This document shows positions 47-37,901 of a stretch of 64,000 bases of DNA, piece by piece. How positions within the stretch are numbered: the stretch's first letter is position 1; every line of letters begins with the position of its first letter. The notes under the pieces were generated by a model that was not told the DNA's origin, did no database searches, and worked only from the letters and a program-made list of their open reading frames with translations. Source of the stretch: a virus. The DNA lies in the IMG/VR virus record IMGVR_UViG_3300028198_000256, positions 51,004 through 115,003 of that record. One strand, 5' to 3'. Position numbers and translations under genes: made by a program.

Positions 47-946
47 TTATGTTAAGAAAAAATCATCCAATACAGTTGACGTTGAAGACGTTATATTATT
101 ATGTTTAATATTATCAACTCCCATTTCAAAATCAGGTCTATTTTTATCCGATTCATTAATAATAATAACATCTTTAAGATCTGTTACATCTTTCCATTGT
201 AGTTTATCTTTTTTTGGATAATTCTTAGTCCAATTCATAGACGATAATTTAAGTAATATTTTAGCAGAACGTTTATCTAATGGATATATGTATCTAAACA
301 TATAACCCTTATATCTACGTATACCACGTTCTTTCATAAATCCTGTGGTCAACCAACTCAACTTATCTTTTTTAAACATATCATCATTACGTCTTTCCCA
401 CTCTACATTTTCTTTACATAAATCTTTACTACTTCTTGGATGTAATTTCTCACCATTTTCCATCATATAAACATCTGTCCAATACCGTTCACCAAAATAA
501 AAATTAGATGCTTGATAAACATATCCACATTTACCCATAATTCCATCTGCCATAGTATACAAATATTTACAATTAGTATTCCGTTTAATCCACCTAATAC
601 TTGATGATATCATGCAAGACCCATATGACTTAGTTCCATTTAATTTAGGTAACAAACACATTTTACCAATTTCAAAATAATAATTAGTCAAAGAATGTTT
701 ATATCCAGAACTCCGAACATTTGGAACATTCAATTCAAACAATTCATCCTTCAACGTTGGTAATATTTTAGCAATAGTATGTCTTGGTCGTGTACCCCAC
801 CCCAATGTCATAACTCCTGATAATTCATCCTTTAAAAAAAACCCAAGATAATGTGTAGTTAGTGCCGGCATAACTGGTGAATAATGATACTTTTCTATAA
901 ACATAACAGCTGTTATTTTATCAATTTTTTTTACTTCAAACTTCAT
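47..946 (-). CDS. mom: Mom-family (GNAT-fold) DNA adenine hypermodification enzyme
   Basis: Motifs colinear with phage Mu Mom: HYS, LGFF..DELSGVMTLG, YFEIGKMCL, ADGIMGKCGYVYQASNF, FRYIYPL, YPK; C-terminal VLDDFF. Confidence 0.8.
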   Translation of the reverse strand: MKFEVKKIDKITAVMFIEKYHYSPVMPALTTHYLGFFLKDELSGVMTLGWGTRPRHTIAKILPTLKDELFELNVPNVRSSGYKHSLTNYYFEIGKMCLLPKLNGTKSYGSCMISSSIRWIKRNTNCKYLYTMADGIMGKCGYVYQASNFYFGERYWTDVYMMENGEKLHPRSSKDLCKENVEWERRNDDMFKKDKLSWLTTGFMKERGIRRYKGYMFRYIYPLDKRSAKILLKLSSMNWTKNYPKKDKLQWKDVTDLKDVIIINESDKNRPDFEMGVDNIKHNNITSSTSTVLDDFFLT

Positions 947-2653: not shown

Positions 2654-4777
2654 TCACCTCAAATCTTTATCAAAATCATCTACCATAATTGATTCATGTT
2701 CTAAAATTCCATCTAATTCGCCTTTCAGATTAGACTCATATGCCCTTTCTAAAATATTTAATGCATCCTTTGTATTAGATGATGTAAAAGTTTTATCTGT
2801 CAACCTAGACCTTGCATCAAATCCTAATGCAGATTTAATTGAATTAGGAACATTGACCACCGACTTCACCATTCTACTATTCAACTTATCTGATGGACCC
2901 TTATATCTTCTACCAAATGGAAATATCAAACGTCTTAATATAAACCCAATGAACTTTGAAGGATAATTGTCTAAAATGTCCTCAAACGATTTCTGTATAT
3001 TATATAATCCAGACTCAGCACCCCATGTAACATATAATATATCATTCTTCTTATCCATATCATCAGTATCTTCGTAACGTTTTAATACCGCAGATGTCAT
3101 ATACAACTCTGAAAATGCATCTGCAAATCTACCAGTTATTCTTTGTCGTTTCTTAAGATCAGCACCCAACACCGATATACTTATATCAGATAACAATGCA
3201 AAGTTCTTTGATTCCAATTCAATACGTTTATAATACTTACCAATTTCACATGATGCGTCTTTTGGTTTAGATATAAACATACCACCAGTAATATTATGAT
3301 ATAATGACCCAAATATATTACCAATAGTATATTTAAGATGACCCATTAACGCCTTATTAAATGCAATCGCATCACCACATTCAGCAGAAGTTACTTCATC
3401 TTTTATAAATGGATGACACCGTAAAGATCCTTGAGAAAATACAATTAGAGATCTCGTTAATATATTCGCACCCTCAACAGTATTAGCAATAGGTTGTGTT
3501 ATATAATAATTCAATAATAAATTATTAGGACCATCAGATATACCCTTTCCAGCCAAAATGTCCATACCATCAATAATACATTGTCGCATCCTTTCAGTAC
3601 ATTGATATTTCAACATGGCAGAAATAACAGATGGTTTTTCACCATTTACTATTGCAGTAGTAGTGAGATTACACGCAGCCTCTACAACATAACATTGTCC
3701 AATTATCCTAGACAATGGCTCTTCAATACCTTCCATCTTGGAAATTGGAATTTTAAATTGTTTTCTTATCCTAGAATATGCAGTAGTAACTTTTAATGTA
3801 TGTTTAATACCAGCCATAGATAATGATGGTAATGATATTGCCCTACCAGCCGCAAGACACGCCATTAACATTCGCCAACCCTTTCCTACCCCATCAATTC
3901 CACCTATAACATGATTCAATGGTAAAAATACATCTTTACCATAATTTGGTCCATTCATAAATGCTTGTCTAGCAGGATAATGTCTGCGTCCTATACGAAC
4001 ACCCTTAGTATCAGTTGGAACTAATACTAAACTTATACCCTCAACAGGAGGCGAATGCTCAGATTCTTTCAATAACTCATCAGGATCCACAATATGACAC
4101 GCAACACCAAGTAATGTAGATACTGGTCCTAGTGTGATATATCGTTTTTCCCAATTTAATCTAATACCTAATACCTTTTCACCGTCATATTCCCCATATT
4201 CAACAACACCATAATCTTCCATCGCCGCAGCATCTGAACCAGAATATGGTCCTGTTAATGCAAATGCCGGTATATCTTTACCTGATGATAATGTAGGTAA
4301 CCATTTATCTTTTTGTTCTTGTGTGCCAAACTCATAAAGCAATTCACCAGGACCCAAAGAATTTGGAACCATAGTAGTAATTGCTAATGATATACTTCTT
4401 GATGCTAAAATTGATATGATACACGATTGTGCATATGCTGAAAATTCCAAACCACCATATTCTTTCTTGATATTAAGTGCAAAAAAACCATTATCTTTTA
4501 AATAATCCCACACCTCAACTGGTAAATCTTTATGTATAACATTAACTTCCCAATCAGACACCATTTCACAAACAGTATCAACTTCAGAGTTAATGAAATC
4601 ATGTTCTTCTTGTGTTAATTTAGTTTGTTCTGTATTTAATAATATATCCCAGTTTGGTCTACCACCAAATAACTCAGATTCCCACCATACTGTACCGGCA
4701 TCTAAAGCCTCTCTTTCAGTATTTGATATCTTTGGTAATATCTTTTGGAATAATTTCATACCATATTCATTCATCAT
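2654..4777 (-). CDS. fadE: Acyl-CoA dehydrogenase, FadE type, lacking the N-terminal membrane segment
   Basis: ISNTEREALDAGTVWWE, MVPNSLGPGELL, FALTGPYSGSDA, WEKRYITLGP, TVEGANILTRSL. Confidence 0.93.
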   Translation of the reverse strand: MMNEYGMKLFQKILPKISNTEREALDAGTVWWESELFGGRPNWDILLNTEQTKLTQEEHDFINSEVDTVCEMVSDWEVNVIHKDLPVEVWDYLKDNGFFALNIKKEYGGLEFSAYAQSCIISILASRSISLAITTMVPNSLGPGELLYEFGTQEQKDKWLPTLSSGKDIPAFALTGPYSGSDAAAMEDYGVVEYGEYDGEKVLGIRLNWEKRYITLGPVSTLLGVACHIVDPDELLKESEHSPPVEGISLVLVPTDTKGVRIGRRHYPARQAFMNGPNYGKDVFLPLNHVIGGIDGVGKGWRMLMACLAAGRAISLPSLSMAGIKHTLKVTTAYSRIRKQFKIPISKMEGIEEPLSRIIGQCYVVEAACNLTTTAIVNGEKPSVISAMLKYQCTERMRQCIIDGMDILAGKGISDGPNNLLLNYYITQPIANTVEGANILTRSLIVFSQGSLRCHPFIKDEVTSAECGDAIAFNKALMGHLKYTIGNIFGSLYHNITGGMFISKPKDASCEIGKYYKRIELESKNFALLSDISISVLGADLKKRQRITGRFADAFSELYMTSAVLKRYEDTDDMDKKNDILYVTWGAESGLYNIQKSFEDILDNYPSKFIGFILRRLIFPFGRRYKGPSDKLNSRMVKSVVNVPNSIKSALGFDARSRLTDKTFTSSNTKDALNILERAYESNLKGELDGILEHESIMVDDFDKDLR

Positions 4778-5066: not shown

Positions 5067-5402
5067 TTAGCTACCATTTTCTATTTTTCTGTTTAATTTT
5101 TCTATTTTTCTGTTTAATTTGTCGCGATTCCGTTTAAGAGATTTAATCTCACGTTTTAAGTTTCTCACATCATCCAAATACCGGTTTGCATCATTTATAT
5201 CACCACATTTAGCCTCCATACGATTACCAATGCTCTGTAATTCCTCCAGTAATCCCATAACAATTGAAAAGTTTCGTGTTTTATAACAAGAACGCATTTC
5301 ATCTATCACAGTACAAAAATATCTATTTGCCATAAATTCCTCCTCATCTATCCAAATTTCTTTTTTCATATTAAGCAACCATTCTTGCAAATTCTTGTGC
5401 AA
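5067..5402 (-). CDS. Hypothetical coiled-coil protein
   Basis: ORF co-oriented with neighbours; heptad-like C-terminus. Confidence 0.6.
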   Translation of the reverse strand: MHKNLQEWLLNMKKEIWIDEEEFMANRYFCTVIDEMRSCYKTRNFSIVMGLLEELQSIGNRMEAKCGDINDANRYLDDVRNLKREIKSLKRNRDKLNRKIEKLNRKIENGS

Positions 5403-7582: not shown

Positions 7583-7611
7583 AGTATATCATACTTTAAC
7601 CGATATGTCAA
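7583..7611 (-). promoter_or_regulatory. Sigma70-type early promoter
   Basis: TTGACA-17 nt-TATACT with extended -10 TG. Confidence 0.8.
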
Positions 7612-7619
7612 GAACTATT

Positions 7620-8495
7620 TTATAAAAATTCATCCAATGTTGATACGTTACTCTTATAATTCATCAATAACAATTCCTTTCTTTTCTTTTGATTCTCCAC
7701 ATATGACGTTAACTGATTATTCATGGTGTATGTGAGATCCCATTCCTCTTGAGTCCATTCACTATACCATTCACGCAGAGTTGGATTGGAATTATATGTA
7801 ATCATACACGTATTACCAGACTTTGATACCTTTTCATAGAATTCTCTATGATTAAATCCTTTATGCATCGAACCATCCTTTCCATATAAAGAATCCTTGA
7901 TATCATATGGCGGATCCAGAAACAAAAATACATTCGGGTCATCATCAATTAATTCAGAATAATCTAGGTTCGTGATTTTCCAATTCTTGATAATCTTTCC
8001 GAATATTGTTAACGATTCTATTACCCTAAAGTTGAAACAATCTCTCATTGCCCATGTTGACATAGTACCAGATTCAGTTAAACCAGAGAAAGACATTCTA
8101 TTCATAGCATACCATCTCCATCCAACCTCAAATGGGTCTGTCTGATCTCCTATCTCCGATTTCATTTCATTGAACAATTCACGACTCTTGTCCACATCAT
8201 CTCCTACTGATTCCTTCTTTTTCTTTAAAATATTGACTAATTGTTCGGTATCACTCTGCAAAGTAATCCAGAAATAATATAGATTCTGATACTTATCATT
8301 TATATGAATGGGAATATTTGGGAATAAACGTGCAAATGCCAAGGAAGGAGACCCCCCACCACCGAAAGCATCTCGGTACTGGGTAATCTCCTTTATATTG
8401 GCTGGAAGTTTGGTATCATGAAACAAATACTTCATTGCCTTTGATTTACCACCTGGATACCTTAGTGGTGTTTTATAGTTGTTTAACGACCTCAC
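7620..8495 (-). CDS. dam: DNA adenine methyltransferase (Dam/D12 class)
   Basis: PLRYPGGKS, DAFGGGGS, FLDPPY; ends STLDEFL. Confidence 0.9.
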   Translation of the reverse strand: MRSLNNYKTPLRYPGGKSKAMKYLFHDTKLPANIKEITQYRDAFGGGGSPSLAFARLFPNIPIHINDKYQNLYYFWITLQSDTEQLVNILKKKKESVGDDVDKSRELFNEMKSEIGDQTDPFEVGWRWYAMNRMSFSGLTESGTMSTWAMRDCFNFRVIESLTIFGKIIKNWKITNLDYSELIDDDPNVFLFLDPPYDIKDSLYGKDGSMHKGFNHREFYEKVSKSGNTCMITYNSNPTLREWYSEWTQEEWDLTYTMNNQLTSYVENQKKRKELLLMNYKSNVSTLDEFL

Positions 8496-9592
8496 TATTT
8501 GCTATTTACCTCTTCCAACATCCAATCTTCTAAAATAACAGACTGTTCCTTTGGTAATCCATCCTTCGTTTCAATTGGTGAAATATCTTGATGAAGAAAC
8601 CCCTTAAACACTATAGGTAAATCAAAAACATACTCTTGACCCGTAGTTTTCTCATAAAACTCTTTAGCAAACAACAAAACATGTTTTTTAAAACTTTTTA
8701 ACCACGCCATCCTTTGTCTTTTAAGAACGTCAGATGCCGGCGATGGGTCTTCTATAAACCCTCGGATTTCTATTGGAATATACACACCATCAACTTTAGA
8801 TACCTTCTCATTAACAATTAATGCCATACAATCATGCAATAATGGTTTAAATGTGCCTTGGGGTTTAACATAACCACATTTTCCAGATTCCTGTTCATTA
8901 ACAGATCCCTTATATGGCAACGTCTTTTCCTTACAGAAAGCGTTGGCTGAATCACTATCCCATGTTTTAAGTGTAACATGTCCGCTATCACATGCTCTAT
9001 ACTTTTTAAGTATCAAATTACGATGTTTTGTATCCTTACCAGGAGTCAATTTGATAATAAGATCTTTAATTGCGATTTGTTCTGGGTCTACCAACTTATC
9101 AGCAGTAATAGTGTTTTGCTCAACACACCTCTTAACAGAATTAACTGTATCTTTAATCCTGTTAATTTTCTTTGGATTGCCATTATTTGAATTGTGTTTT
9201 GCAATTTCTCTAAATAATGGAGTTCTATAAACTACCTTATCAAAAGGTAAACAATCCCACTGCGGAATCTTTGCCGCCTCGTAACGGTGAAACCCAGTAG
9301 TACCCTTATTACCATCACGTGAGTCTTCATATTGCAACGGTGGTTCACCATGATCCCAATTTTTAGCTAAAAAAGATTCCCCAATTTCTGATATATTTTC
9401 CTTAATATTTTCTTCAACCTTGTTTTGGTCATTGACATCAAACCTAACTTTGTTTAAGTTCATAACATGTCTTTTCAAAAATTGCACTCCCGGCTCTCCA
9501 TACCATTTTTCCCCATTGGGACCTATGCCATAAATATATTCAGGTGGACACCTTTTTAATGAGTCTTTTAAATCAAAATTTAATTCTAACAT
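8495..9592 (-). CDS. Hypothetical protein with possible ParB/Srx-like domain
   Basis: EPP...GFHRYEAA resembles the ParB GxHR motif; stop overlaps the dam start. Confidence 0.45.
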   Translation of the reverse strand: MLELNFDLKDSLKRCPPEYIYGIGPNGEKWYGEPGVQFLKRHVMNLNKVRFDVNDQNKVEENIKENISEIGESFLAKNWDHGEPPLQYEDSRDGNKGTTGFHRYEAAKIPQWDCLPFDKVVYRTPLFREIAKHNSNNGNPKKINRIKDTVNSVKRCVEQNTITADKLVDPEQIAIKDLIIKLTPGKDTKHRNLILKKYRACDSGHVTLKTWDSDSANAFCKEKTLPYKGSVNEQESGKCGYVKPQGTFKPLLHDCMALIVNEKVSKVDGVYIPIEIRGFIEDPSPASDVLKRQRMAWLKSFKKHVLLFAKEFYEKTTGQEYVFDLPIVFKGFLHQDISPIETKDGLPKEQSVILEDWMLEEVNSK

Positions 9593-9756
9593 TTTCTTTC
9601 CTTCTAATAAAGAGGTCTACTGACCAAATGATAAGGACATCACTGACATCCTTTTAATAAAAAGTATTATCTTTCACTGAAACTTTCACTGAAGATTAAT
9701 ACTAACTTTGTTCTTATTTTTTATAACTCATTGAGAAATAAGAAACTCAATTTAAA

Positions 9757-9831
9757 TGGAGCGGACGGGTCGGAATCAAACCGCCTCTTTCTGTATGGTA
9801 TACAGATATTCTATCATTAAATTACACCCGC
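9757..9831 (-). tRNA. Non-canonical tRNA-Gly-like gene (anticodon ACC, CCA encoded)
   Basis: GCGGGTG-TA-ATTT AATGATA GAAT-A-TCTGT ATACCAT ACAGA-AAGA-GGCGG TTTGATT CCG(A)CC-CGTCCGC-T-CCA; Gly identity elements G1C72, C2G71, G3C70, U73, C35C36. Confidence 0.8.
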
Positions 9832-9860
9832 AATATTATTTTAACTTAGTACTTATAATG

Positions 9861-9889
9861 ATCATAACACATAATGTCGGAATTGTCAA
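9861..9889 (-). promoter_or_regulatory. Sigma70-type early promoter driving the tRNA-Gly-like gene
   Basis: TTGACA-17 nt-TATGAT with extended -10 TG. Confidence 0.75.
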
Positions 9890-10068
9890 GTTTTTAACAC
9901 CGTCACATTTCCCTCAATAACCTTTACTGTGTTTTCTTGTCTCCACGTATATCTGTCATCAAATTTATGTCCACATTTTTTATAATCATCCCACTTCATA
10001 CATAAAATATCCTCTGTCAATTTACCACCACCTTCACCTTCAATTATCGGTTGTATCATCATTCCCAT
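9886..10068 (-). CDS. Hypothetical protein
   Basis: Short ORF with GGTGA upstream. Confidence 0.5.
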   Translation of the reverse strand: MGMMIQPIIEGEGGGKLTEDILCMKWDDYKKCGHKFDDRYTWRQENTVKVIEGNVTVLKT

Positions 10069-10327: not shown

Positions 10328-10356
10328 ATAATAACACATTGCGTCAGAATTGTCAA
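10328..10356 (-). promoter_or_regulatory. Sigma70-type early promoter
   Basis: TTGACA-17 nt-TATTAT with extended -10 TG. Confidence 0.75.
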
Positions 10357-10363
10357 GGATTAT

Positions 10364-10879
10364 TTAAGTTTTACACTTAGATGAGTGAACATCCACCGTT
10401 TCCTTCACACACGTTAATGATTCAATCGTAACTTCTCCTGGATATGGCCAAGTTTGTCTTGGTGGCAATTTCCCCACCTGACTCCCATTATCATACCACC
10501 GTTCACCATATGCCATTTGATTAACAGGGTCTACCGTATCAAGAAAAGTAACTACTGTGGGGAAATACCCACTTTCAATTAACTGCAAATGATATTCCCA
10601 AGTAACTGTACCATATGCAACTATTATAACGTTATCACCAACATCACATAATTTTGCTGCGGCACCATTCACTGAAATAGTAAAAGATCTTTCATCGGGG
10701 ATTGCATATGTTGTGAATCTCTCACCATTATTAATATTATATATTTCAATTTGTTGATAAGGTAATATATTCGACTTCTCTAATATATCATTGGAAATAC
10801 CACAAGAACCCTCATAATCAATATCACATTCTGTAATTGTTGCACCGTGTATTTTTGATTTTAATATCTGTATTTCCAT
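10364..10879 (-). CDS. panD: Aspartate 1-decarboxylase with C-terminal extension
   Basis: KSKIH, YEG/SC autocleavage site, NGERFTTYAI, NGAAA. Confidence 0.92.
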   Translation of the reverse strand: MEIQILKSKIHGATITECDIDYEGSCGISNDILEKSNILPYQQIEIYNINNGERFTTYAIPDERSFTISVNGAAAKLCDVGDNVIIVAYGTVTWEYHLQLIESGYFPTVVTFLDTVDPVNQMAYGERWYDNGSQVGKLPPRQTWPYPGEVTIESLTCVKETVDVHSSKCKT

Positions 10880-15379: not shown

Positions 15380-16333
15380 TCATGATACTAACGCCTTTAA
15401 TGATTCACCATTACGAAATCTTCGTATCGTCTCCGATACCAAGTCCTTTACACTTATTACCTTTATCTTTGATGTCAACTCAGAAGTATGTTCTATGGAA
15501 TCTGTAATATACAAAGTCCCGATATCAGACTGTTCTATTCGTTCAATAGACTTTCCAGAAAAAACACCATGAACTGCAACACAATCAACCCTCACCGATC
15601 CAGACAACTTTAATGCCTCTGCAGCACCAACCAATGTTCCCCCACCATCAATCATATCATCTACTATAACACATTTTTTACCTTCAACATCACCAATAAC
15701 ATTCATAACTTCAGACATACCCGGCTCTGGTCGACGTTTATCAATAATTGCGATTGGTAAATTTAATTCCTTTGCAAAATACCTTGCACGACCAGAACCA
15801 CCCACATCAGCAGCAACCACAACATCCCAATAAGAAGGAACAATTGCGGCAACAATAGAATCCCTCATAGTTTTTAAAGCTGATATATGTTCACAAACAA
15901 CATTGTTATTAAAAAATGCTTGTGTTTGTAAAGAATGTAAATCCATACAGATTACTGAATTTATACCAGAATAACAGAGCATATTAGCAAACACCTTACC
16001 AGATATAGGACTTCTATTAGTACGTCTATCTTGTCTAGCATATGCATAATATGGGAATATAACATTAATAACAGATGGATTTGAACGTCTAACTGCATCA
16101 ATAAGTAACATCAATTCCATTATATCATTGTTTCTATTAGAACCTACCCCAGATTTAAATCCAGCTATAATAAAAACTTCCTCTAACCGAATGTTCTCCT
16201 TAATCTCTACATAAATCTCTGAATCAGGAAAATCTCTAATTTTCACCTTGGTCAATCTCATACCAAGATTCTCAGCAACTTGTTTGGCCAACTTTGTATT
16301 AGACCGTGTTGAAATTATTATAGATTTTTTCAT
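15380..16333 (-). CDS. prs: Ribose-phosphate pyrophosphokinase
   Basis: FPDSEI, PYYAYARQDRR, DLHSLQ, IIDKRR, VIVDDMIDGGGT. Confidence 0.95.
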   Translation of the reverse strand: MKKSIIISTRSNTKLAKQVAENLGMRLTKVKIRDFPDSEIYVEIKENIRLEEVFIIAGFKSGVGSNRNNDIMELMLLIDAVRRSNPSVINVIFPYYAYARQDRRTNRSPISGKVFANMLCYSGINSVICMDLHSLQTQAFFNNNVVCEHISALKTMRDSIVAAIVPSYWDVVVAADVGGSGRARYFAKELNLPIAIIDKRRPEPGMSEVMNVIGDVEGKKCVIVDDMIDGGGTLVGAAEALKLSGSVRVDCVAVHGVFSGKSIERIEQSDIGTLYITDSIEHTSELTSKIKVISVKDLVSETIRRFRNGESLKALVS

Positions 16334-18060
16334 AAATTATCTTTACATAATGTTTCAATTATATTTTTCATTGCAATAGATTGATCATCTGGGGCAATCT
16401 CTATATTTAATACATAAGATTGTGACACATCATCTAATGCAGTTTCTAATGCATTCCTGAATTGAGAAGAATCTGATATATACATCCCAACACCACCATC
16501 CATTAAATCTGTTATTTTATCATATCTCCAATTATGAATATCATTGAACTCACCTTCCATAATTGCCTTTTCAGTAGAATATCCCCTATTATTAAGTATA
16601 AGAATAACAGTATTCAACTCATTACGAATGTGGGATGAAAATTCAGAACCCGTCATTTGAAAGGCACCATCACCAACAATGACTATTGGTCTTTTATGTG
16701 GTTTTGCATACTTAACACCAACTGCGGCAGGAACCGAAAATGACATAGATGTATAATATGCCATACATAAAAATTGTCCTTTCCTCATAGGAACATCAAT
16801 AATACCAAATAACGATTCACCTATATCTGATATTACTATATGATCCTCACTTATCAATTCACCTATAGTATCAAATACATATTCCAATTTAGTAGGATTC
16901 GTCATGTCATGTGACTTAAATGACAATTTACTGGTATCTACAATATTAGTCCATCTACTTATAGAATTATCAGATTGAATCTCAGAATCATCTAAATATA
17001 CCAAAAATGAACGAACCAATTCATAAAAATCCTCAGTTGTGGATTTTAATGTTTTAATATGTTTATTTTGAAACATGATACCATCATCCATATTAATAGA
17101 AATATCAGCAACAAAATCAAATGATTCAATATCCGTATTAACCATACCAATAGTAACAATACAGTCTGATTTTTTTATCTCATCAATAACTGACGAATCA
17201 GAAAATAAACCAGAAACACACCCAATAGAATTTCGACTGAACTCTGAAATGGTGGATTTACCAAGCAAAGTTGTAAATATTGGAATATTAAACTTCTTTG
17301 CAAAATTAAGAATATGATCTTCTAATGAATTACGAAATACCTCATGACCAATAATTAAAACCCTATTACTTGCAGATTTAAATTTATTCAAATTATCATA
17401 TGGTAAATTTATAGATTTGCATTCTTTAGAAAATGGAGTATCCTTAACAATGACATTATTAGAATCCTTCACATATGCTGGAAAGATTTTTGATGGTACA
17501 TCATCCCCATATACTGTTTGAAATTTCTTCAAATATTCATCAACTGAACGTACTATATCTTTATTTGAAAATTCAATATAAATTGGTCTAGAATGTTTTC
17601 GCATTTTATTCAATGCCAAATGAATCATAGACATATTAAAAAACATATCTTCAGAATCTAACGAATAAGTATTAGTGGTTATATTCTTGAATATATCCCT
17701 TTGTGTATTTGCATTATTGATTGTGTGATGTCTATTTGGATTTACCAATAAATCATCAGATGATGGTTTACCAACAAGAATAACAACTGGTGACCTTTCC
17801 GCATAGGCACCAGCAACCGAATTCATAATATTCATAGCACCAACTGAATACGTGACACATACCACACCACAACCACGTAATCTACCATATGCATCTGCGG
17901 CATATCCAGCAGAATCTTCTCTACTCACTCCAACATATTCCATATCAGAATGTTCTTCAATTTCACGCATAAAATTTAACGTGTAATCTCCTGGTATACC
18001 AAATATATGACCTGCACCATATAACTTTAATTGTTCTATTAAAAAATGTCCTAAATTCAT
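16330..18060 (-). CDS. ThDP-dependent 2-oxo-acid decarboxylase (pyruvate/indolepyruvate decarboxylase family)
   Basis: FGIPGDY, AGYAADAYGR, GDGAFQMTG...ILNNRGY ThDP motif. Confidence 0.88.
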   Translation of the reverse strand: MNLGHFLIEQLKLYGAGHIFGIPGDYTLNFMREIEEHSDMEYVGVSREDSAGYAADAYGRLRGCGVVCVTYSVGAMNIMNSVAGAYAERSPVVILVGKPSSDDLLVNPNRHHTINNANTQRDIFKNITTNTYSLDSEDMFFNMSMIHLALNKMRKHSRPIYIEFSNKDIVRSVDEYLKKFQTVYGDDVPSKIFPAYVKDSNNVIVKDTPFSKECKSINLPYDNLNKFKSASNRVLIIGHEVFRNSLEDHILNFAKKFNIPIFTTLLGKSTISEFSRNSIGCVSGLFSDSSVIDEIKKSDCIVTIGMVNTDIESFDFVADISINMDDGIMFQNKHIKTLKSTTEDFYELVRSFLVYLDDSEIQSDNSISRWTNIVDTSKLSFKSHDMTNPTKLEYVFDTIGELISEDHIVISDIGESLFGIIDVPMRKGQFLCMAYYTSMSFSVPAAVGVKYAKPHKRPIVIVGDGAFQMTGSEFSSHIRNELNTVILILNNRGYSTEKAIMEGEFNDIHNWRYDKITDLMDGGVGMYISDSSQFRNALETALDDVSQSYVLNIEIAPDDQSIAMKNIIETLCKDNL

Positions 18061-19684: not shown

Positions 19685-20178
19685 AAGAGGATTTCTGTTG
19701 CCAAGTATCCCCAAACTCCGCATACTTATATACTAAGCTGCAACCGCAAAATTATCATCTGCATTTATTTTTTTGATTTTTACATCTTTCTTGATGAATA
19801 GTCCATATACAATATAGTACATTGTCGAATCTGTTCTCCCCCACAAAAATTGTCTAGTCACAACCCAAAAGTCCTGCAGAACTTCATGAACGCCACTTGC
19901 GGCTAAGGATACCCGGGAGTTTGTTGTCCCGTGTTCACATACGTCCATATATACATTGTAGAACCCATCATCGCTGGTTTGGTGCTAAGTTAAATGAACC
20001 CGTTGGCTCTGGGGGAATTCCCCCTCACCATCTTTCGTACGCTCCATCTATTCTACTAAGTATACCGTGTGTCACACATTCCGTATATATGCATTATACA
20101 TCTACACTAGACAATTTATGTGGAAGAGGTGGGAATCGCACCCACGTCCAACATACATAAAATATACTTCAAACTATT
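19685..20178 (-). ncRNA. ssrA: Circularly permuted (two-piece) tmRNA
   Basis: Acceptor piece GGAC-GTGGG TGCGATT CCCAC-CTCTTCC-A (ends 20121) lies upstream of the 5' strand GGGGGAG-AACAGATTCGAC (starts 19842); G3.U70 pair; helix 2 AATGTAC/GTATGTT; tag (A)ADDNFAVAA* at 19762-19733. Confidence 0.9.
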
Positions 20179-20479
20179 ATGCTTTTAACTTTAAATCTTC
20201 CTCCGTTACAATATCTTCATACCCATCATACTCACGAACATAAAACTTTAACCCCTCTGTAACATATGACAATCTCATATTATCAAACTCATATAAATTA
20301 TGAGTTGGTTCTGACATCTCCATCACCTGTTTATGAAATGATTTCTCATCCCCATGCAAAAATTCATAAATTAATTCAGCATCCATTCTAAGTGATTGGG
20401 GTTTAATGGAAAATCCACTACCCCAACCAGCATGTATAAGAACTCCTACTTTACCATCTGCACTATAATATTTGCCCAT
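20177..20479 (-). CDS. Conserved phage hypothetical protein
   Basis: GKVGVLI.AGWGSGFS and FYVREYDGYE pattern seen in phage proteins. Confidence 0.65.
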   Translation of the reverse strand: MGKYYSADGKVGVLIHAGWGSGFSIKPQSLRMDAELIYEFLHGDEKSFHKQVMEMSEPTHNLYEFDNMRLSYVTEGLKFYVREYDGYEDIVTEEDLKLKA

Positions 20480-22460
20480 CTAAATTCTCCACTAATTGTG
20501 CATCTTGAGAATGATATTGTTTAGTGATTTCTTTATCTGTTTCATCTGAATAATGTAATGGACCACCTCTAAATGGAGCAAATCCAGTACCAAAAATAAT
20601 ACCAGAATCTATAAGATCAGCAGACTCTACAATACCATCATACAAACATAATTTACACTCTCTAATAATTTTTTCAATTAACCTTGTCGTTATCTCTATT
20701 TTAGGATCCGCATAAACCGCATCCACGGGTTTACCTTTGTCATATATGTAAAACCCACTACCAGATTTAATACCCAATTTACCCTTGTCTACTAACTTCT
20801 TTAATCTTTTTGGAACAGTAATTCCAAGATCCTCACTTATTATATCCGTAACAAAATAACAAACATCAAGTCCTACAGTATCTGCCAATAATAATGGACC
20901 CATTGGCATACCAAAATCAGTAAAAGAATTGTCAATTTCTTCTTTACTATATCCCTCATCCAACATATTAATAGCCTCAATAAGTGTAGGCATTAACACA
21001 CGATTAACTAAAAATCCTGGACTCGATTTGACTTTTAATGGTAACTTATCAATATGTCTACAAAATGACATAGACTTCTCTATAACATCCTCTGATGTAA
21101 TATCTGAATATACCACTTCAACCAAAGGCATTTTTGCAACTGGATTAAAGAAGTGTATACCAACTAATCTCTCAGGATTTTTCATTTCACTTGATAATAC
21201 TTCCAACTTGATAGAAGATGTATTAGTGCCCAATATAGCAGTACGTTTCATTTCAGATTCTAATTCACTATATAATTGACGTTTAATATCCGCATTTTCA
21301 ACAATAGCTTCAATGACTATATCTGCGGAAGATATACCATATCCATTTTTATCAGGAATCAACCTATCATACACGTCATTGATTAAATAATCCTTTCCAG
21401 AAAATCTTTTTACATAAAATTTATACGATCTTTTCATTGCGGCAGCTATGGTGTTATCATCAATATCTTGTAAAGTCACCTTATATCCCCTTAGAGCCGC
21501 CCACATTGCAATGTCTCCACCCATTACACCAGCACCTATAACGTGGACATGTTTAAGATCTAACTTAGATTTATCACCAGAAGATTTAAGTAAATCCTGT
21601 AACATAAACACTCGTAATAAATTCTTTGCAGTATCTGTCATTGCTAACTTAGAAACCGACTCCGCCTCTGCATTCATAAAATGATGCTCATCATATCCAT
21701 ATTTTTCCCATATATCAACTAAAGCATATGGAGCAGGATAATGTTGTTTATTTGCCTCTTTCCTTAAATTTCTACGTATCTGCATTGATAATAACTTTCT
21801 ACCAATACCAGAATTCAATACAGAATCTAATTTATCTGGTCGTCTAACGGGAGGACACTTTGCAAGTACATCTTCCGCAGATTTAACTAATAAACGTTCA
21901 GGAACTGCATAATCAACTAATCCCATCTTTTTTGCCTGATATACTGATAAAGTACGTCCACTTAACATCATACCCATAGCCTTAATAACACCAAGAACTC
22001 TAATAGACCTAACAGAACCACCAAATCCAGGATGTATCCCCAACTTAACTTCAGGAAATCCGACTCGGATATTAGGAGAATCTAATATAATTCTATAATC
22101 ACATGATAATGCAAGTTCCAATCCACCACCAAGACACAATCCATTAATTAATGCCAATGTAGGAAATTCCATATCATCAATTAACCACATCACTTCTTGT
22201 CCTTTAGTAATGGCTTCATAAGCATCATCATACTCATGGAAATCCTTAAATTCTGTAACATCAGCACCAGCAATAAACCCAGTTGATTTATCAGAACAAA
22301 TAACCATACCATCAGGATTATCAGATTTAACCTCTAATAATACATCTTTTAATTCCGTTAATACTTCACCAGATAATACATTCATACTACCATAAGAATA
22401 ATCAAAATGTACCCATGCTATATTGTTAGAATATTTTAATTTAAAATGTTTATAATTCAT
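20463..22460 (-). CDS. fadJ: Multifunctional enoyl-CoA hydratase / 3-hydroxyacyl-CoA dehydrogenase (FadJ/FadB)
   Basis: FIAGADV, CLGGGLELAL, PEVKLG, VIGAGVMGG, TNTSS, GIHFFNPV, GMPMGP. Confidence 0.93.
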   Translation of the reverse strand: MNYKHFKLKYSNNIAWVHFDYSYGSMNVLSGEVLTELKDVLLEVKSDNPDGMVICSDKSTGFIAGADVTEFKDFHEYDDAYEAITKGQEVMWLIDDMEFPTLALINGLCLGGGLELALSCDYRIILDSPNIRVGFPEVKLGIHPGFGGSVRSIRVLGVIKAMGMMLSGRTLSVYQAKKMGLVDYAVPERLLVKSAEDVLAKCPPVRRPDKLDSVLNSGIGRKLLSMQIRRNLRKEANKQHYPAPYALVDIWEKYGYDEHHFMNAEAESVSKLAMTDTAKNLLRVFMLQDLLKSSGDKSKLDLKHVHVIGAGVMGGDIAMWAALRGYKVTLQDIDDNTIAAAMKRSYKFYVKRFSGKDYLINDVYDRLIPDKNGYGISSADIVIEAIVENADIKRQLYSELESEMKRTAILGTNTSSIKLEVLSSEMKNPERLVGIHFFNPVAKMPLVEVVYSDITSEDVIEKSMSFCRHIDKLPLKVKSSPGFLVNRVLMPTLIEAINMLDEGYSKEEIDNSFTDFGMPMGPLLLADTVGLDVCYFVTDIISEDLGITVPKRLKKLVDKGKLGIKSGSGFYIYDKGKPVDAVYADPKIEITTRLIEKIIRECKLCLYDGIVESADLIDSGIIFGTGFAPFRGGPLHYSDETDKEITKQYHSQDAQLVENLDGQIL

Positions 22461-25189: not shown

Positions 25190-27100
25190 TTATTTAGTTT
25201 CTGTTTTTTCTTCTGGTGTCGGTTCCACAATCTCAGCATCTACAACTTCTGCCTCTTCGGGAACGACACCATCAACGACTTCTGCTTCAGGTTCCGGAAC
25301 TGGCTTTTGTAAAGTTGCAGATAACTCAGCCAACGATTGCACTTTAGTATTAATATCATCTAAATCTTCACCAGACATAGATTCTTTCAATTCAGAAACA
25401 CTATTTACGATCTTCTCACGTTCTTCATCTGGTACTATAATTTCTTCGTCTGCTAATTTCTTCTCAACATCATTAATAAATCCTTCCGCCATATTTCTTG
25501 CACCAACCAACGCAGTATACTTATCATCTGCATCTTTATGTTCTTCACCCTCTTTAATCATACGTTCTACATCTTCATCAGATAACCCCGATGAAGATTT
25601 AATTTCAATTGATTGTTCCTTACCAGTGTTTTTATCCTTGGCAGAAACATGCATAATACCATTAGCATCAATATTAAATTCAACTTCAATTTGTGGTGTT
25701 CCGCGTGGTCCTGGTTGAATTTCTGTTAAATCAAATCTACCTAAAGAATTATTACCAGAAGCAACTGAACGTTCACCTTGAAGAACATGAATAGTTACAG
25801 CTGATTGATTATCCTCTGCCGTCGAAAATACTTCACTTTTTTTCGTTGGAATGGTGGTATTCTTTTCAATTAATGTGGTCATAACACCACCCATCGTTTC
25901 AATACCTAATGACAATGGAGTAACATCAAGCAATAACACATTGTCAATACCACCAGATAACACACCACCCTGTGTAGCAGCACCAAGAGCAACTGACTCA
26001 TCAGGATTTACATCCTTTCTCGGTTCAATTCCAAAAATAGATTTTACCATTTCTTGAACTTTAGGCATTCTAGTTTGCCCACCAACTAAAATAACATCAT
26101 CGACCTTAGTAATGTCTGCATCCTTTAACGCAGTAACACATGGGTTTTTTGTACGTTCAATTAATTCAGATACCATCTTCTCCAATTTAGAACGTGAAAT
26201 CTTAACATTTAAATGTTTAGGACCAGTAGAATCCGCAGTAATATATGGTAAATTTACTTCAGTTTCTTGAGTCGATGACAACTCAATTTTACACTTTTCT
26301 GCCGCTTCTTTTAATCGTTGTAATGCAATAGGATCATTATGAAGATCTACACCATTTTCTTTTTTAAATTCATCACAGAGATAATCAATAAGTCGTAAAT
26401 CGAAATCCTCACCACCTAAAAATGTATCACCATTAGTAGACAATACTTCAAAGGAATATTCCCCATCCACATTCGACATCTCAATAATAGAAACATCAAA
26501 AGTACCACCACCAAGATCATAAACAGCAACTACCTTATCATCTTTAATATCACCCTTATCTAAACCATAAGATAGAGCCGCAGCAGTAGGTTCATTGATA
26601 ATTCGCATAACATCTAGTCCTGCAATCTTACCAGCATCCTTTGTTGCCTGTCTTTGTGAATCATTAAAATAAGCAGGAACAGTAATAACCGCCTGTGTTA
26701 CTTCAGAACCCAAATATGACTCCGCATCTTTTTTTAATTTCATTAAAATTTTTGATGAAATTTCTGGGGGAGATAATAACTCACCACCAGATTTTACCCA
26801 CGCATCACCATTATCCGCCTCTACAATGTCATAAGGCACCATAGATATGTCCTTTTGAACTGCATCATCTTTAAACTTTCTGCCAATTAATCTCTTAACC
26901 GCAAACAATGTATCTTTTGGATTAGTCACCGATTGTCTCTTAGCCGACTGTCCTACTAATATTTCCGAATCCGAATGTGAAACTATAGATGGTGTCGTCC
27001 TAGAACCTTCACCATTTTCAATTACTACTGCCTTACCATTCTCTAATACAGCTACACATGAATTAGTAGTACCCAAATCAATACCAATAATATTACCCAT
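25190..27100 (-). CDS. dnaK: Chaperone DnaK (Hsp70)
   Basis: [37 protein letters not shown]. Confidence 0.97.
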
Positions 27101-37825: not shown

Positions 37826-37901
37826 TGGTGGGTCTGGTAGGACTCGAACCTACACTCGGCCGATTATGAGTCGGATGCATTAACCATTATGCTACAGACC
37901 C
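37826..37901 (-). tRNA. tRNA with CAU anticodon (probably Ile2/lysidine type, or elongator Met)
   Basis: GGGTCTG...TCCGA CTCATAA TCGGC...GTAGG TTCGAGT CCTAC CAGACCC A CCA, 76 nt. Confidence 0.92.

What the first reader, a model, noticed from the sequence alone, without database searches (positions are those of the whole stretch)
9757..9831. The tRNA-Gly(ACC) shows compensatory rather than random divergence
Seen: the near-universal G19-C56 elbow pair is replaced by A19-U56 (D-loop AATGATA, T-loop TTTGATT). The anticodon arm can close to 7 bp (TCTGTAT/ATACAGA), leaving a 3-nt ACC loop. Position 34 is A, which is highly atypical for bacterial Gly tRNAs. The T-stem has a bulged A at the EF-Tu contact region, and A15/A48 lacks the usual Levitt pair. 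The compensatory elbow change plus intact acceptor stem and CCA argue for selection. Alternative roles are a decoy or an anticodon-nuclease-resistant tRNA.
Basis: partly seen in the sequence, partly recalled or inferred. Interest (0 to 1): 0.7.

Follow-up and report, generated by a model that had tools for sequence, protein, structure and literature searches.

The report
Odd phage glycine tRNA tied to Mom
A marine T4-like phage carries a real but deformed glycine tRNA on a small optional gene cassette that travels with a ParB-like gene and with Mom, an enzyme known to take glycine from charged glycine tRNA to disguise DNA, so the RNA is most likely the phage's own glycine carrier rather than a decaying relic.

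Summary
On the minus strand at 9757-9831 lies a 75-nt tRNA-Gly derivative: ACC anticodon, A19/U56, a bulged A in the T-stem, encoded CCA. ARAGORN misses it and Rfam scores it 29.9 bits (cut-off 29), but a T4-type tRNA-Gly model gives 56.8 bits. All 21 cloverleaf pairs are kept.

It is not decaying. Three diverged homologues keep 97.5% of stem cells paired, and 12 of 21 pairs change on both sides (0/500 shuffles reach this). Neutral simulations give P from 2e-3 to below 5e-6. That supports selection, but through the stems. The A19-U56 swap is unique to this lineage and cannot be tested.

Context changes the reading. The element sits behind its own promoter in a 1.39-kb cassette with a ParB-like ORF. 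Genomes 97-99% identical lack the cassette and also lack the Mom gene at 47-946. In a diverged relative the order is Mom, tRNA-Gly-like, ParB-like ORF. Mom uses Gly-tRNA-Gly to modify DNA (Silva 2026), and the same trio is published for Dehalococcoides islands (2011).

Best reading (about 0.5): a phage-supplied glycine carrier linked to Mom. Main rival: an ordinary GGU-decoding tRNA (GGT is 62% of Gly codons).

Other agents of this scan reported Mom with a private tRNA-Gly on other DNA. Nothing here is tested at the bench.

The parts
9757..9831 (-). 75-nt tRNA-Gly derivative with anticodon ACC, encoded CCA, A19/U56, a bulged A in the T-stem and A15/A48
   Evidence: Rfam RF00005 29.9 bits. Model R1 56.8 bits, E = 1e-11. 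21/21 cloverleaf pairs. Not called by ARAGORN. Identical in L037 and L038.
9861..9889 (-). Sigma-70-type promoter TTGACA-17-TATGAT with a TG extension, about 30 nt upstream of the tRNA 5' end
   Evidence: 11 of 12 consensus matches. 100% conserved in L037/L038. About 82% like the promoter at 10328-10356.
9730..9751 (-). Hairpin (ATTGAG...CTCAAT) 6 nt after the CCA. L041 and L043 have a hairpin of different sequence (CCCATA...TATGGG) at the same place.
   Evidence: Read from the sequence.
9593..9729 (-). Conserved 5' leader of the ParB-like ORF: an AT-rich hairpin followed by a T-run, a second hairpin that keeps pairing through sequence change, CAGTAG/CAGTGA motifs and a Shine-Dalgarno sequence
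   Evidence: Alignment A4 of six leaders.
8495..9592 (-). ORF365 (P0001): a ParB-N/KorB/PadC-type N-terminal domain plus helical region (residues 34-203) and a C-terminal domain with no known fold match
   Evidence: PDB profile search hits Noc/ParB at E = 4e-4. AF2 model pLDDT 89. Foldseek finds ParB-CTP, KorB and Srx. VIA-align gives 5k5d Z = 10.5, and Z <= 5 for the C-terminal part. Invariant G100 and R103. No direct Pfam or PHROG hit.
8501..9891 (-). The 1.39-kb accessory cassette (promoter, tRNA-like element, leader, ORF365), inserted exactly between the last sense codon and the TAG stop of the upstream 60-aa ORF
   Evidence: Absent from L003, L004, L005 and L020 with 97-99% identical flanks. 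Junction alignment A1. The cassette-free joint 8497->9892 is seen in a contig of run X5.
47..946 (-). Mom-family GNAT gene (tRNA-dependent adenine hypermodifier), itself a clean accessory indel
   Evidence: Pfam PF25680, E = 7e-46. S124 is invariant and Mu R111 is K here. Absent from L025/L028, L026 and L027 at exactly this place. A homologue lies directly upstream of the tRNA-like/ORF365 module in L043 and of ORF365 in L039.
7620..8495 (-). DNA methyltransferase whose GTG start overlaps the TAG stop of ORF365 (context, not part of the cassette)
   Evidence: PHROG 56, E = 7e-69. Junction alignment.

Best explanation
The element is a genuine tRNA-Gly derivative, held in shape by selection, and descended from the tRNA-Gly of T4-type phages. 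It is made from its own strong early-type promoter, and its CCA end is encoded. It keeps every determinant that bacterial GlyRS reads, so it should be charged with glycine. That step is inferred, not shown.

It belongs to a small portable module with a ParB-like gene. The module is linked, by co-occurrence in this genome and by adjacency in relatives, to a Mom gene. Mom takes glycine from Gly-tRNA-Gly and puts it on adenine N6 of double-stranded DNA.

The most likely job of this RNA is therefore to give the phage its own supply of Gly-tRNA-Gly for (or to offset) Mom-driven DNA hypermodification.

The deviations lie where EF-Tu, the ribosome and the tRNA elbow act, and not where GlyRS or Mom are thought to read: the T-stem bulge and A19/U56 here, and the eroded D-arms in L041 and L043. 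This suggests (inference) that the RNA is partly or wholly kept out of translation. The non-proteinogenic tRNA-Gly species that feed staphylococcal cell-wall synthesis behave that way.
For: Real and constrained:
- RF00005 29.9 bits and model R1 56.8 bits; 21/21 cloverleaf pairs.
- Across the window, L041, L043 and L042, 97.5% of stem cells are paired, against 78% in shuffles and 39-49% with slid partners. Twelve of 21 pairs change on both sides, and 0/500 shuffles reach this.
- Unconstrained substitution at the observed stem divergence keeps the pairing with P = 2e-3 to below 5e-6.
- L041 vs L043: leader 92% identical, ORF 77%, tRNA-like element only 67%, yet the stems stay paired.
- GC is 45% against 23-26% in the non-coding flanks.

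Chargeable:
- G1-C72, C2-G71, C35, C36, U73, CCA and purine-4/pyrimidine-69 are all present, and invariant across the family.
- These are the determinants of bacterial alpha2beta2 GlyRS. Loop sequences matter little for charging (PMC10464925).

Expressed:
- A promoter matching 11 of 12 consensus positions.
- Contigs of two metatranscriptome runs cover the element, and one bridges it to ORF365. DNA carry-over is not excluded.

Link to Mom:
- Mom at 47-946.
- At least three close relatives lack both Mom and the cassette, each as a clean indel.
- In L043 the order is Mom, promoter, tRNA-Gly-like, ORF365. In L039/L040 it is Mom, promoter, ORF365.
- Mom uses Gly-tRNA-Gly, rejects Gly-tRNA-Ala and probably reads the acceptor end (PMC13219725).
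- The trio of ParBc protein, Mom and tRNA-Gly-like locus is published for 16 Dehalococcoides island modules and a marine fosmid (PMC3146451).

Ancestry: L042's canonical tRNA-Gly is 80% identical to the T2/T4 tRNA-Gly. The window element's 5' half is 79% identical to the RB16 tRNA-Gly, though that hit is weak (E = 7).
Against: - The tRNA-like element is tied more tightly to ORF365 than to Mom. In this genome it is 7.5 kb from Mom.
- In L042 a canonical tRNA-Gly follows ORF365 among replication genes (gp59, gp32), with no Mom in the 4.5 kb held.
- L039 and L040 have Mom plus ORF365 without any tRNA.
- Twelve other Mom contexts have no tRNA-Gly or look-alike within 6 kb and no ORF365 relative. 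These are nine viral contigs at 46-53% Mom identity plus the Melnitz, Edwardsiella and Psychrobacter phages.
- Mu Mom works with host tRNA (PMC13219725).
- The co-absence of Mom and the cassette in relatives involves only two of about five indels in this 13-kb stretch, so it is weak on its own.
- The window version keeps a complete cloverleaf. Its ACC anticodon is the Watson-Crick partner of GGT, which is 62% of this phage's Gly codons. That fits plain decoding.
- Charging, EF-Tu avoidance and use by Mom are all untested.
Confidence: 0.5

Rival explanations
1. It is an ordinary, if unusual, decoding tRNA. The phage supplies a tRNA-Gly whose ACC anticodon pairs by Watson-Crick with GGU, its dominant glycine codon. 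With unmodified A34 it may read all four GGN codons. The link to Mom is a coincidence of hyperplastic-region gene shuffling.
For: - GGT is 62% and GGC 2.7% of 1085 Gly codons in 44 ORFs.
- The full cloverleaf, 21/21 pairs, is kept in this lineage.
- It descends from the T4-family tRNA-Gly.
- An engineered UCC->ACC tRNA-Gly with unmodified A34 reads all glycine codons, and A34 is argued to be advantageous in four-fold boxes (PMC6103715).
- The genome has no other tRNA-Gly.
Against: - The bulged A in the T-stem, A19/U56 and A15/A48 lie in the parts used by EF-Tu and the ribosome.
- The sister elements L041 and L043 have truncated or malformed D-arms, and L041 has G55.
- The cassette is dispensable in near-identical phages with the same codon usage.
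- Natural A34 outside tRNA-Arg is very rare (PMC6103715).
Confidence: 0.25
2. It serves ORF365 rather than Mom or translation. It could be a tRNA-shaped processing or stability handle (an RNase P/Z site) at the 5' end of the ORF365 mRNA, or an RNA that the ParB-like protein itself binds or uses.
For: - A tRNA-Gly or look-alike lies next to ORF365 in four of five lineages. It is upstream in the window, L041 and L043, and downstream in L042.
- The layout is always promoter, tRNA, hairpin, conserved leader, ORF.
- One RNA-library contig bridges the tRNA-like element and ORF365.
Against: - A processing handle would not need U33, C35, C36, A37 and U73, which are invariant.
- L039 and L040 express the same leader and ORF without it.
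- No known ParB/Srx-fold protein acts on tRNA (my own knowledge). The fold searches gave only DNA-binding CTPases, sulfiredoxin and small-molecule kinases.
Confidence: 0.1
3. It is a non-functional relic of a tRNA-Gly that hitch-hiked when the ORF365 cassette moved, and it is on its way to decay.
For: - Borderline Rfam score and no ARAGORN call.
- A 1-nt insertion in the T-stem.
- G19->A, C56->U and three G-U pairs are all changes in the direction of AT pressure.
- The cassette is optional.
- The D-arms of L041 and L043 look eroded.
Against: - Stem pairing survives 30-60% stem divergence, with P = 2e-3 to below 5e-6 under neutrality, and shows strong covariation.
- The identity nucleotides are invariant.
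- It is a GC island between AT-rich flanks.
- The spacer just downstream of it has lost all similarity between lineages, while the cloverleaf has not.
Confidence: 0.08
4. One reading: a tRNA-Gly variant whose altered anticodon loop (A32, A34, U38) resists a host anticodon nuclease, or a decoy that soaks up such an enzyme or a GNAT toxin acting on Gly-tRNA-Gly.
For: - The anticodon loop differs from T4-type tRNA-Gly at positions 32, 34 and 38.
- Phage tRNAs with anticodon-loop changes have been proposed to evade host tRNases (PMC10264068).
- The body sequence turns over fast while the fold is held, as expected in an arms race.
Against: - No nuclease specific for tRNA-Gly was found or is named in the paper read.
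- The sister elements keep the ordinary UUCCA loop core.
- Nothing in the cassette or its neighbours points to a tRNase conflict, whereas a user of Gly-tRNA (Mom) is present.
Confidence: 0.07

Closest known systems
Integration modules of Dehalococcoides ssrA genomic islands: ParBc-domain protein, Mom homologue and a conserved 76-bp tRNA-Gly-like 'pseudo-tRNA' (McMurdie et al. 2011, PMC3146451)
   Same: The same three parts travel together: a ParB-N-type protein, a Mom-family gene and a tRNA-Gly-shaped RNA that annotation pipelines miss or flag as pseudo. Compare L043 and this window.
   Different: - There the tRNA-like locus is embedded in the first 150 bp of mom, in a bacterial integrative island, and the ParBc protein has about 210 aa.
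- Here the RNA is free-standing behind its own promoter in a T4-like phage. It sits next to a 365-aa ParB-like protein with an extra C-terminal domain, and in this genome it is 7.5 kb from mom.
- The 2011 paper gave no function.
Phage Mu Mom using host Gly-tRNA-Gly (Silva et al. 2026, PMC13219725; preprint 10.1101/2023.03.24.534169)
   Same: A Mom-family enzyme is present (PF25680, E = 7e-46) with the essential S124 conserved. Its known co-substrate is exactly the kind of RNA found here.
   Different: - Mu carries no tRNA and scavenges host isoacceptors.
- The paper reports no phage tRNA, ParB-like partner or gene context.
- Mu R111 is K in this clade.
Non-proteinogenic tRNA-Gly (NP1, NP2, NEW) of Staphylococcus aureus, glycine donors for pentaglycine bridges (PMC4574755)
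   Same: These are glycine tRNAs that keep charging but lack the G18/G19-U55/C56 elbow nucleotides. They bind EF-Tu weakly and feed a GNAT-fold transferase outside the ribosome. This is what the element would work like.
   Different: - The lineage, the organism type (Gram-positive chromosome) and the acceptor (peptidoglycan precursor, not DNA) all differ.
- Here G18 and U55 are kept, 19-56 is A-U, and the extra defect is a T-stem bulge.
- EF-Tu binding is untested.
tRNA-Gly(UCC) genes of T4-type phages (T2/T4, RB16, Aeromonas phage 4_4572)
   Same: Common descent. L042's canonical copy is 80% identical to T2's. The window element shares the RB16 D-arm and anticodon stem.
   Different: Those genes score 87-97 bits on R1 and lie in tRNA clusters. 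This element scores 56.8 bits, has ACC, A19/U56 and a bulge, and lies in an accessory cassette.
Engineered tRNA-Gly1 UCC->ACC with unmodified A34 (cited in PMC6103715)
   Same: The same anticodon. It shows that ACC can decode, and without discriminating the third codon base.
   Different: That is a laboratory mutant. Natural bacterial or phage tRNA-Gly(ACC) is not described in the papers I read.
PeSL promoter/terminator cassettes that shuffle genes in T4-like hyperplastic regions (PMC2839356, PMC4122927)
   Same: A small gene module bounded by an early-type promoter is gained or lost between near-identical T4-like genomes. The cassette promoter is about 82% like a neighbouring one.
   Different: The junctions lie at the -35 box and at the ORF stop, with only 3 nt of shared letters, and not inside repeated PeSL motifs.

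Membership tests
tRNA (Rfam RF00005) | Score at or above the curated gathering score, with a four-arm cloverleaf | tested here: met
   29.9 bits against 29, full-length 1-70 of 71. 21/21 pairs. This is a marginal pass.
tRNA (Rfam RF00005) | Conserved elbow nucleotides G18, G19, U55, C56 and a regular 5-bp T-stem | tested here: not met
   G18 and U55 are present. Position 19 is A and position 56 is U. One A is bulged between 63 and 64. ARAGORN gives no call.
Bacterial tRNA-Gly (substrate of alpha2beta2 GlyRS) | G1-C72, C2-G71, C35, C36, U73, and purine 4 with pyrimidine 69 (PMC10464925) | tested here: met
   All are present in the window element (G4-C69). They are invariant, or conservative at 4-69, across seven aligned sequences.
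Bacterial tRNA-Gly (substrate of alpha2beta2 GlyRS) | Actual glycylation | not testable with these tools
   Needs an in vitro charging assay or acid-gel Northern.
Non-proteinogenic (ribosome-avoiding) tRNA-Gly | Loss of elbow nucleotides while charging determinants are kept | tested here: inconclusive
   Partial in the window element (A19/U56, A15/A48, bulge). Stronger in L041 (no D-loop GG, G55) and L043 (malformed D-arm).
Non-proteinogenic (ribosome-avoiding) tRNA-Gly | Weak EF-Tu binding and use by a non-ribosomal transferase | not testable with these tools
   Needs EF-Tu protection or binding assays and a Mom activity assay.
Mom family (PF25680), gene at 47-946 | Pfam match over the cut-off and the catalytic residues S124 and R111 (Mu numbering; PMC13219725) | tested here: inconclusive
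   156.9 bits against 27.1. S124 is invariant. R111 is Lys in the window, L043, Melnitz, Psychrobacter phage and L049.
ParB-N / sulfiredoxin fold (ORF365) | The fold and the GxxR nucleotide-binding motif | tested here: met
   Profile search against Noc/ParB, E = 4e-4. 5k5d Z = 10.5 over 152 residues. G100 and R103 are invariant in 58 sequences. Pfam ParB_N hits only 2 of 58 members, and not P0001 itself.
Mom + tRNA-Gly-like + ParB trio (as in Dehalococcoides islands) | All three parts in one element, adjacent | tested here: inconclusive
   Adjacent in L043. In this window all three are present and co-variable, but Mom is 7.5 kb from the other two. L039/L040 lack the tRNA, and no Mom is seen in L042.
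PeSL-mediated cassette | Indel bounded by repeated promoter/stem-loop motifs | tested here: not met
   The junctions share only 3 nt, although promoter-like repeats are common nearby.

The most novel reading that the evidence does not exclude
A portable three-part DNA-disguise kit in marine T4-like phages:
- Mom.
- A private glycine tRNA that GlyRS charges, but that its T-stem and elbow defects keep away from EF-Tu and the ribosome. This would let DNA hypermodification proceed without draining translation.
- A ParB-like protein that loads or aims Mom on DNA, or that attacks DNA lacking the mark.

On this reading the fast sequence turnover of the tRNA body under a fixed fold reflects co-adaptation with Mom or escape from host factors.
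Probability: 0.3. Interest if true: 0.85.

Novelty: new variant of a known kind. Interest (0 to 1): 0.72.

Why it matters
Mom was shown only in 2026 to be the first enzyme that uses a charged tRNA to modify DNA. That work assumes the phage scavenges host tRNA, and it notes the possible cost to translation.

A phage-borne, chargeable but translation-unfit tRNA-Gly that travels with Mom would mean some viruses carry their own substrate carrier for DNA hypermodification. This would be a new use for viral tRNA genes, alongside codon supply and nuclease evasion. It would also explain 'pseudo-tRNAs' that standard finders miss.

It gives a function to the tRNA-Gly-like locus noted in Dehalococcoides islands in 2011. 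It also points to a ParB-like partner of unknown role.

The idea can be tested directly with existing in vitro Mom assays.

Tried and rejected
Contexts of the 94% and ~57% ORF365 clusters, and of the wider family, could not be fetched that way. I used the search for related loci instead.
- No DNA match for the region in GenBank phages.
- No ORF365 relative in IMG/VR by patterns or in GenBank phages by tblastn.
- Pattern searches for the anticodon arm and for the leader motif in viral contigs found nothing.
- The genome search 'relatives' is not available for a virus record. The records behind L041-L043 are not held.
- Alignment A5 was too diverse for the search for related loci.
- The MFE fold of the element alone is not better than shuffles (z = -0.97). 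Single-sequence folding is uninformative here.
- L037 and L038 carry an identical element, but they are the same lineage at the same site. Zero differences in 135 nt against 3.2% in the ORF is only suggestive.
- Runs X5 and X6 do not cover the tRNA-like element. That says nothing either way.
- The X1 contig ends at 9834, 3 nt before the tRNA 5' end. This is one study and a contig only, so it is not evidence of a 5' end.
- RNA-library contigs cannot exclude DNA carry-over.
- The 35-nt R2 hit (GCGAGGA...UGCUCGCUCCA) in L053 and L054 is marginal at E = 0.21 and lies antisense inside an ORF. I treated it as chance.
- The 378-aa ORF after Mom in L053 is not an ORF365 relative (hhalign probability 0.3%).
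- A blastn of the Psychrobacter mom gene against E. coli genomes found nothing and was not useful.
- I considered a homing-endonuclease reading of ORF365 (from memory, by analogy with T4 SegB in the tRNA cluster). No nuclease fold other than ParB-N was found, so I dropped it.
- Complex prediction was not used, because no protein-protein claim is made.
Full report
**1. What is at 9757-9831**

The window is the last 64 kb of a 115-kb IMG/VR viral record. The phage is a T4-like marine myovirus. Its gp43 polymerase is about 47% identical to cyanophage polymerases. The window is 31.8% GC, and all of its ORFs of at least 150 aa lie on the minus strand.

The plus strand starts TGG, which is CCA in reverse complement.
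- ARAGORN finds only a tRNA-Met at 37826-37901 and does not call this element.
- Rfam's tRNA model gives 29.9 bits against a gathering score of 29. The tRNA-Met scores 72 bits.
- A covariance model built from four canonical T4-type tRNA-Gly genes (L042, T2, RB16, Aeromonas phage) gives 56.8 bits, E = 1e-11. That is inside the 35-53-bit range of true tRNAs of other isotypes on the same model.

- A19 with U56, and G18 and U55 kept.
- Anticodon ACC with U33 and A37.
- One A bulged between T-stem positions 63 and 64.
- A15 and A48.
- Discriminator U73 and an encoded CCA.

All 21 cloverleaf pairs are standard pairs. The '7-bp stem, 3-nt loop' closure is only A32-U38 plus U33-A37. The canonical L042 tRNA-Gly folds the same way in silico.

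**2. It sits in an optional cassette**

Related viral contigs were fetched through two neighbouring proteins. Four of them (L003, L004, L005, L020) match the window's immediate flanks at 88-99%. In these the alignment jumps from window 9892 straight to 8500.

The missing 1.39 kb holds, in order:
- A promoter, TTGACA-17-TATGAT with a TG extension, matching 11 of 12 consensus positions.
- The tRNA-like element.
- A hairpin.
- A leader.
- A 365-aa ORF.

The insert lies exactly between the last sense codon and the TAG stop of the upstream 60-aa ORF, and that stop now ends ORF365. A contig in one marine RNA-library run carries the cassette-free joint, so both forms co-exist in nature.

Two metagenome contigs (L037, L038) are the same lineage with the cassette at the same site. 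Their promoter, short leader and tRNA-like element (135 nt) are identical to the window's, against 3.2% divergence in the ORF. This is one comparison and only suggestive.

**3. ORF365**

It has no direct Pfam or PHROG hit. An exhaustive profile search finds a family of about 80 representatives.
- A 58-sequence profile matches Noc/ParB N-domains at E = 4e-4.
- The AlphaFold model (pLDDT 89) matches ParB-CTP, KorB, PadC, sulfiredoxin and the pNOB8 ParB-N domain. The best is Z = 10.5 over residues 34-203.
- G100 and R103, the GxxR motif, are invariant.
- Residues 212-365 have no convincing structural match.

**4. Homologues of the element**

ORF365 relatives at 53-58% identity were found on six short metagenome contigs.
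- L041 and L043 have the same layout: promoter, tRNA-Gly-like element with anticodon UCC, hairpin, conserved leader, ORF. Neither ARAGORN nor Rfam at E <= 1 saw these. Model R1 scores them 39.0 and 48.4 bits, full length.
- L042 has no upstream tRNA. A canonical tRNA-Gly(UCC) of 59 Rfam bits lies 14 nt after the ORF. It is 80% identical to the T2/T4 tRNA-Gly.
- L039 and L040 have the promoter, leader and ORF with no tRNA.

In the structural alignment the invariant positions are G1-C72, C2-G71, U33, C35, C36, A37, G53-C61, U73 and CCA. These include all published determinants of bacterial alpha2beta2 GlyRS. That enzyme cares little about loop sequences (PMC10464925).

What has eroded is the D-arm and elbow:
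- L043 lacks the position 8-9 linker.
- L041 has a 13-nt stump and a T-loop with G55.
- The window has A19/U56, A15/A48 and the T-stem bulge.
- All three share purine-rich variable loops, unlike the canonical genes.

**5. Constraint versus decay**

- On the model-fitted alignment of the window-type element, L041, L043 and L042, 97.5% of stem cells pair. Shuffles give 78% and slid partners 39-49%. Twelve of 21 pairs change on both sides, and no shuffle out of 500 reaches any of the five measures. The caveat is that the alignment was fitted to the structure.
- I simulated unconstrained substitution over the 17 acceptor, anticodon and T-stem pairs, using the observed number of stem differences and a 2:1 transition bias. 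The observed pairing is kept with P from 2e-3 down to below 5e-6.
- Between L041 and L043 the leader is 92% identical, the ORF 77% and the tRNA-like element 67%. The sequence turns over fast while the fold is held.
- The spacer right after the element has lost all similarity between the window and the others.
- The element is 45% GC between 23-26% GC flanks.

The elbow is relaxed. The A19-U56 pair itself occurs in one lineage only and cannot be called compensatory on this evidence.

**6. Expression**

Six marine metatranscriptome runs from three studies hold the cassette. Only assembled contigs could be laid.
- In run X1 one contig covers 8000-9834 without a difference. It bridges ORF365, the leader and the element.
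- In run X2 a contig covers 9601-10227, across the element and promoter.

Contigs cannot show ends, strand or level, and DNA in RNA libraries is not excluded. Expression is supported only weakly.

**7. The link to Mom**

An earlier first-reader note on this genome (e1-6036337) pointed to a Mom-like gene at 47-946, and I tested that.
- It is a clear Mom-family protein (PF25680, E = 7e-46).
- S124 is conserved. Mu R111 is Lys throughout this marine clade.
- tblastn then showed a Mom homologue (53% identical) ending about 20 nt before the promoter of the tRNA-like/ORF365 module in L043. The C-terminal end of another lies just before the ORF365 promoter in L039.
- In the cassette-free relatives, synteny runs at 93-99% up to window ~935-943 and resumes at ~10-53. 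Mom is a second clean indel, missing from the same genomes that lack the cassette.

Published context:
- Silva et al. 2026 (PMC13219725) showed that Mu Mom transfers glycine from Gly-tRNA-Gly to adenine N6 in dsDNA. It accepts all three E. coli isoacceptors, rejects glycine on tRNA-Ala, and probably reads the acceptor end. The paper mentions no phage tRNA, ParB-like partner or gene context.
- McMurdie et al. 2011 (PMC3146451) described, without a function, a ParBc protein, a Mom homologue and a conserved tRNA-Gly-like 'pseudo-tRNA' inside mom. They found these in 16 Dehalococcoides island modules and a marine fosmid.

The trio found here is thus a recurring association seen in unrelated mobile elements.

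**8. Limits of that link**

- Twelve other Mom contexts have no tRNA-Gly or look-alike within 6 kb by ARAGORN, R1 or R2, and no ORF365 relative. These are nine viral contigs at 46-53% Mom identity plus the Melnitz, Edwardsiella and Psychrobacter phages.
- Their Mom genes sit among other DNA-modification genes: TET-associated glycosyltransferases and a DNA methylase.
- In this genome the element is next to ORF365 and 7.5 kb from Mom.
- L042 shows a canonical tRNA-Gly beside ORF365 among replication genes, with no Mom in the part held.
- The shared absence of Mom and the cassette is two of about five indels in the region.

The element is an optional add-on and not a requirement of Mom. Its closest partner is the ParB-like gene.

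**9. Reading**

Shown:
- It is a real tRNA-Gly derivative held in shape by selection, with all charging determinants, its own promoter and an encoded CCA.
- It lies in a mobile cassette with a ParB-like gene.
- That module is associated with Mom by adjacency in relatives and by co-occurrence here.

Inferred:
- It is charged by host GlyRS.
- Its Gly-tRNA feeds or offsets Mom-driven DNA modification.
- Its T-stem and elbow defects lower its use by EF-Tu and the ribosome, as in staphylococcal non-proteinogenic tRNA-Gly (PMC4574755).

I give this reading about 0.5. The main rival is plain decoding:
- GGT is 62% of the phage's Gly codons.
- An engineered ACC tRNA-Gly with unmodified A34 reads all GGN codons (PMC6103715).
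- This lineage keeps a full cloverleaf.

The two readings are not exclusive. A phage that spends Gly-tRNA on its DNA may simply top up the pool.

The ParB-like protein might load or aim Mom, or act against unmarked DNA. Mom domains in jumbo phages are typically fused to endonucleases predicted to do that (PMC7824862). This last point is speculation.

**10. Novelty**

- The Mom mechanism, the Dehalococcoides trio and ribosome-avoiding tRNA-Gly donors are each published.
- Among the papers I searched and read, I found none that describes a viral tRNA-Gly look-alike supplied together with Mom.
- Other agents of this scan have reported Mom with a private tRNA-Gly on other DNA, one case with a ParB gene. 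I did not check those notes beyond the two papers they cite.
- Specific to this case are the ACC anticodon, the free-standing promoter-driven cassette with a 365-aa ParB-like gene, the separation from Mom within the genome, and the paired presence and absence in near-identical phages.

Noticed in passing
window 9593-9729 (-); L039 262-362, L041 74-182, L042 307-399, L043 929-1038: The 5' leader of the ParB-like ORF is conserved across 53-58% diverged homologues. It has an AT-rich hairpin followed by a T-run (attenuator-like), a second hairpin that keeps pairing with different sequence, and repeated CAGTAG/CAGTGA motifs. It may be a regulatory RNA or a protein-binding operator.
   Followed up: partly
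window 2654-4777, 20463-22460, 16330-18060, 25190-27100, 936-2045, 2002-2649, 10364-10879: An unusual metabolic gene load for a phage: acyl-CoA dehydrogenase, a FadB-like hydratase/dehydrogenase, a ThDP enzyme, Hsp70/DnaK, alanine dehydrogenase, a formyltransferase and aspartate decarboxylase (PanD).
   Followed up: no
window 47-946 (-) C-terminus; alignment A8: Mom here ends in ...STVLDDFFLT. The marine homologues end in similar LD/LE-x-FF tails that Mu Mom lacks. An earlier scan note reads these as sliding-clamp-binding tails. I did not test that.
   Followed up: no
window 8495-9592 vs L037/L038: The 35 nucleotide differences in ORF365 are spread 11/9/15 over codon positions, and 96.8% nt identity gives only 94% aa identity. 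This suggests relaxed or diversifying selection on the ParB-like protein.
   Followed up: no
L030 1081-1380, L031 4681-4980, L035 3338-3632, L036 3479-3773; window about 20121-20185: Related contigs carry a permuted two-piece tmRNA with tag AEDNFALAA or AEYNFALAA. ARAGORN did not call one in the window, but R1 gives a weak tRNA-like hit at 20121-20185. Earlier notes describe a permuted tmRNA there.
   Followed up: no
L058 4991-5064 (Methylophilales phage Melnitz MZ577097, record about 68570-68643): A tRNA-Trp(CCA) found by ARAGORN and by R1/R2 lies inside an annotated hypothetical CDS and is not annotated as a tRNA. It is about 1 kb upstream of that phage's Mom homologue, which is itself annotated 'DUF465'.
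   Followed up: no
G000 upstream of the window (window coordinates about -234 to -4660); L025 and L026 tails: A family of 90-115-nt repeats at 80-97% identity recurs at least five times between genes. They are probably PeSL-type promoter/terminator motifs.
   Followed up: no
window 7585-7621, 5363-5371 and 10363-10372 versus L003/L025: The relatives carry extra segments that this genome lacks: about 1.6 kb between the methyltransferase and the peptidase, about 0.2 kb and about 0.3 kb. The region is a hot spot of indels.
   Followed up: no
L049 7272-9039: In a 64-kb viral contig the Mom homologue is followed by two TET-associated glycosyltransferase genes. In L054 it is followed by an N6/N4 DNA methylase. 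Mom sits in DNA-modification islands.
   Followed up: no
window 37826-37901 (-): The only canonical tRNA has anticodon CAT, in a genome with 544 ATA codons against 473 ATG in the ORFs counted. It could be a tRNA-Ile2 (lysidine type) rather than tRNA-Met.
   Followed up: no
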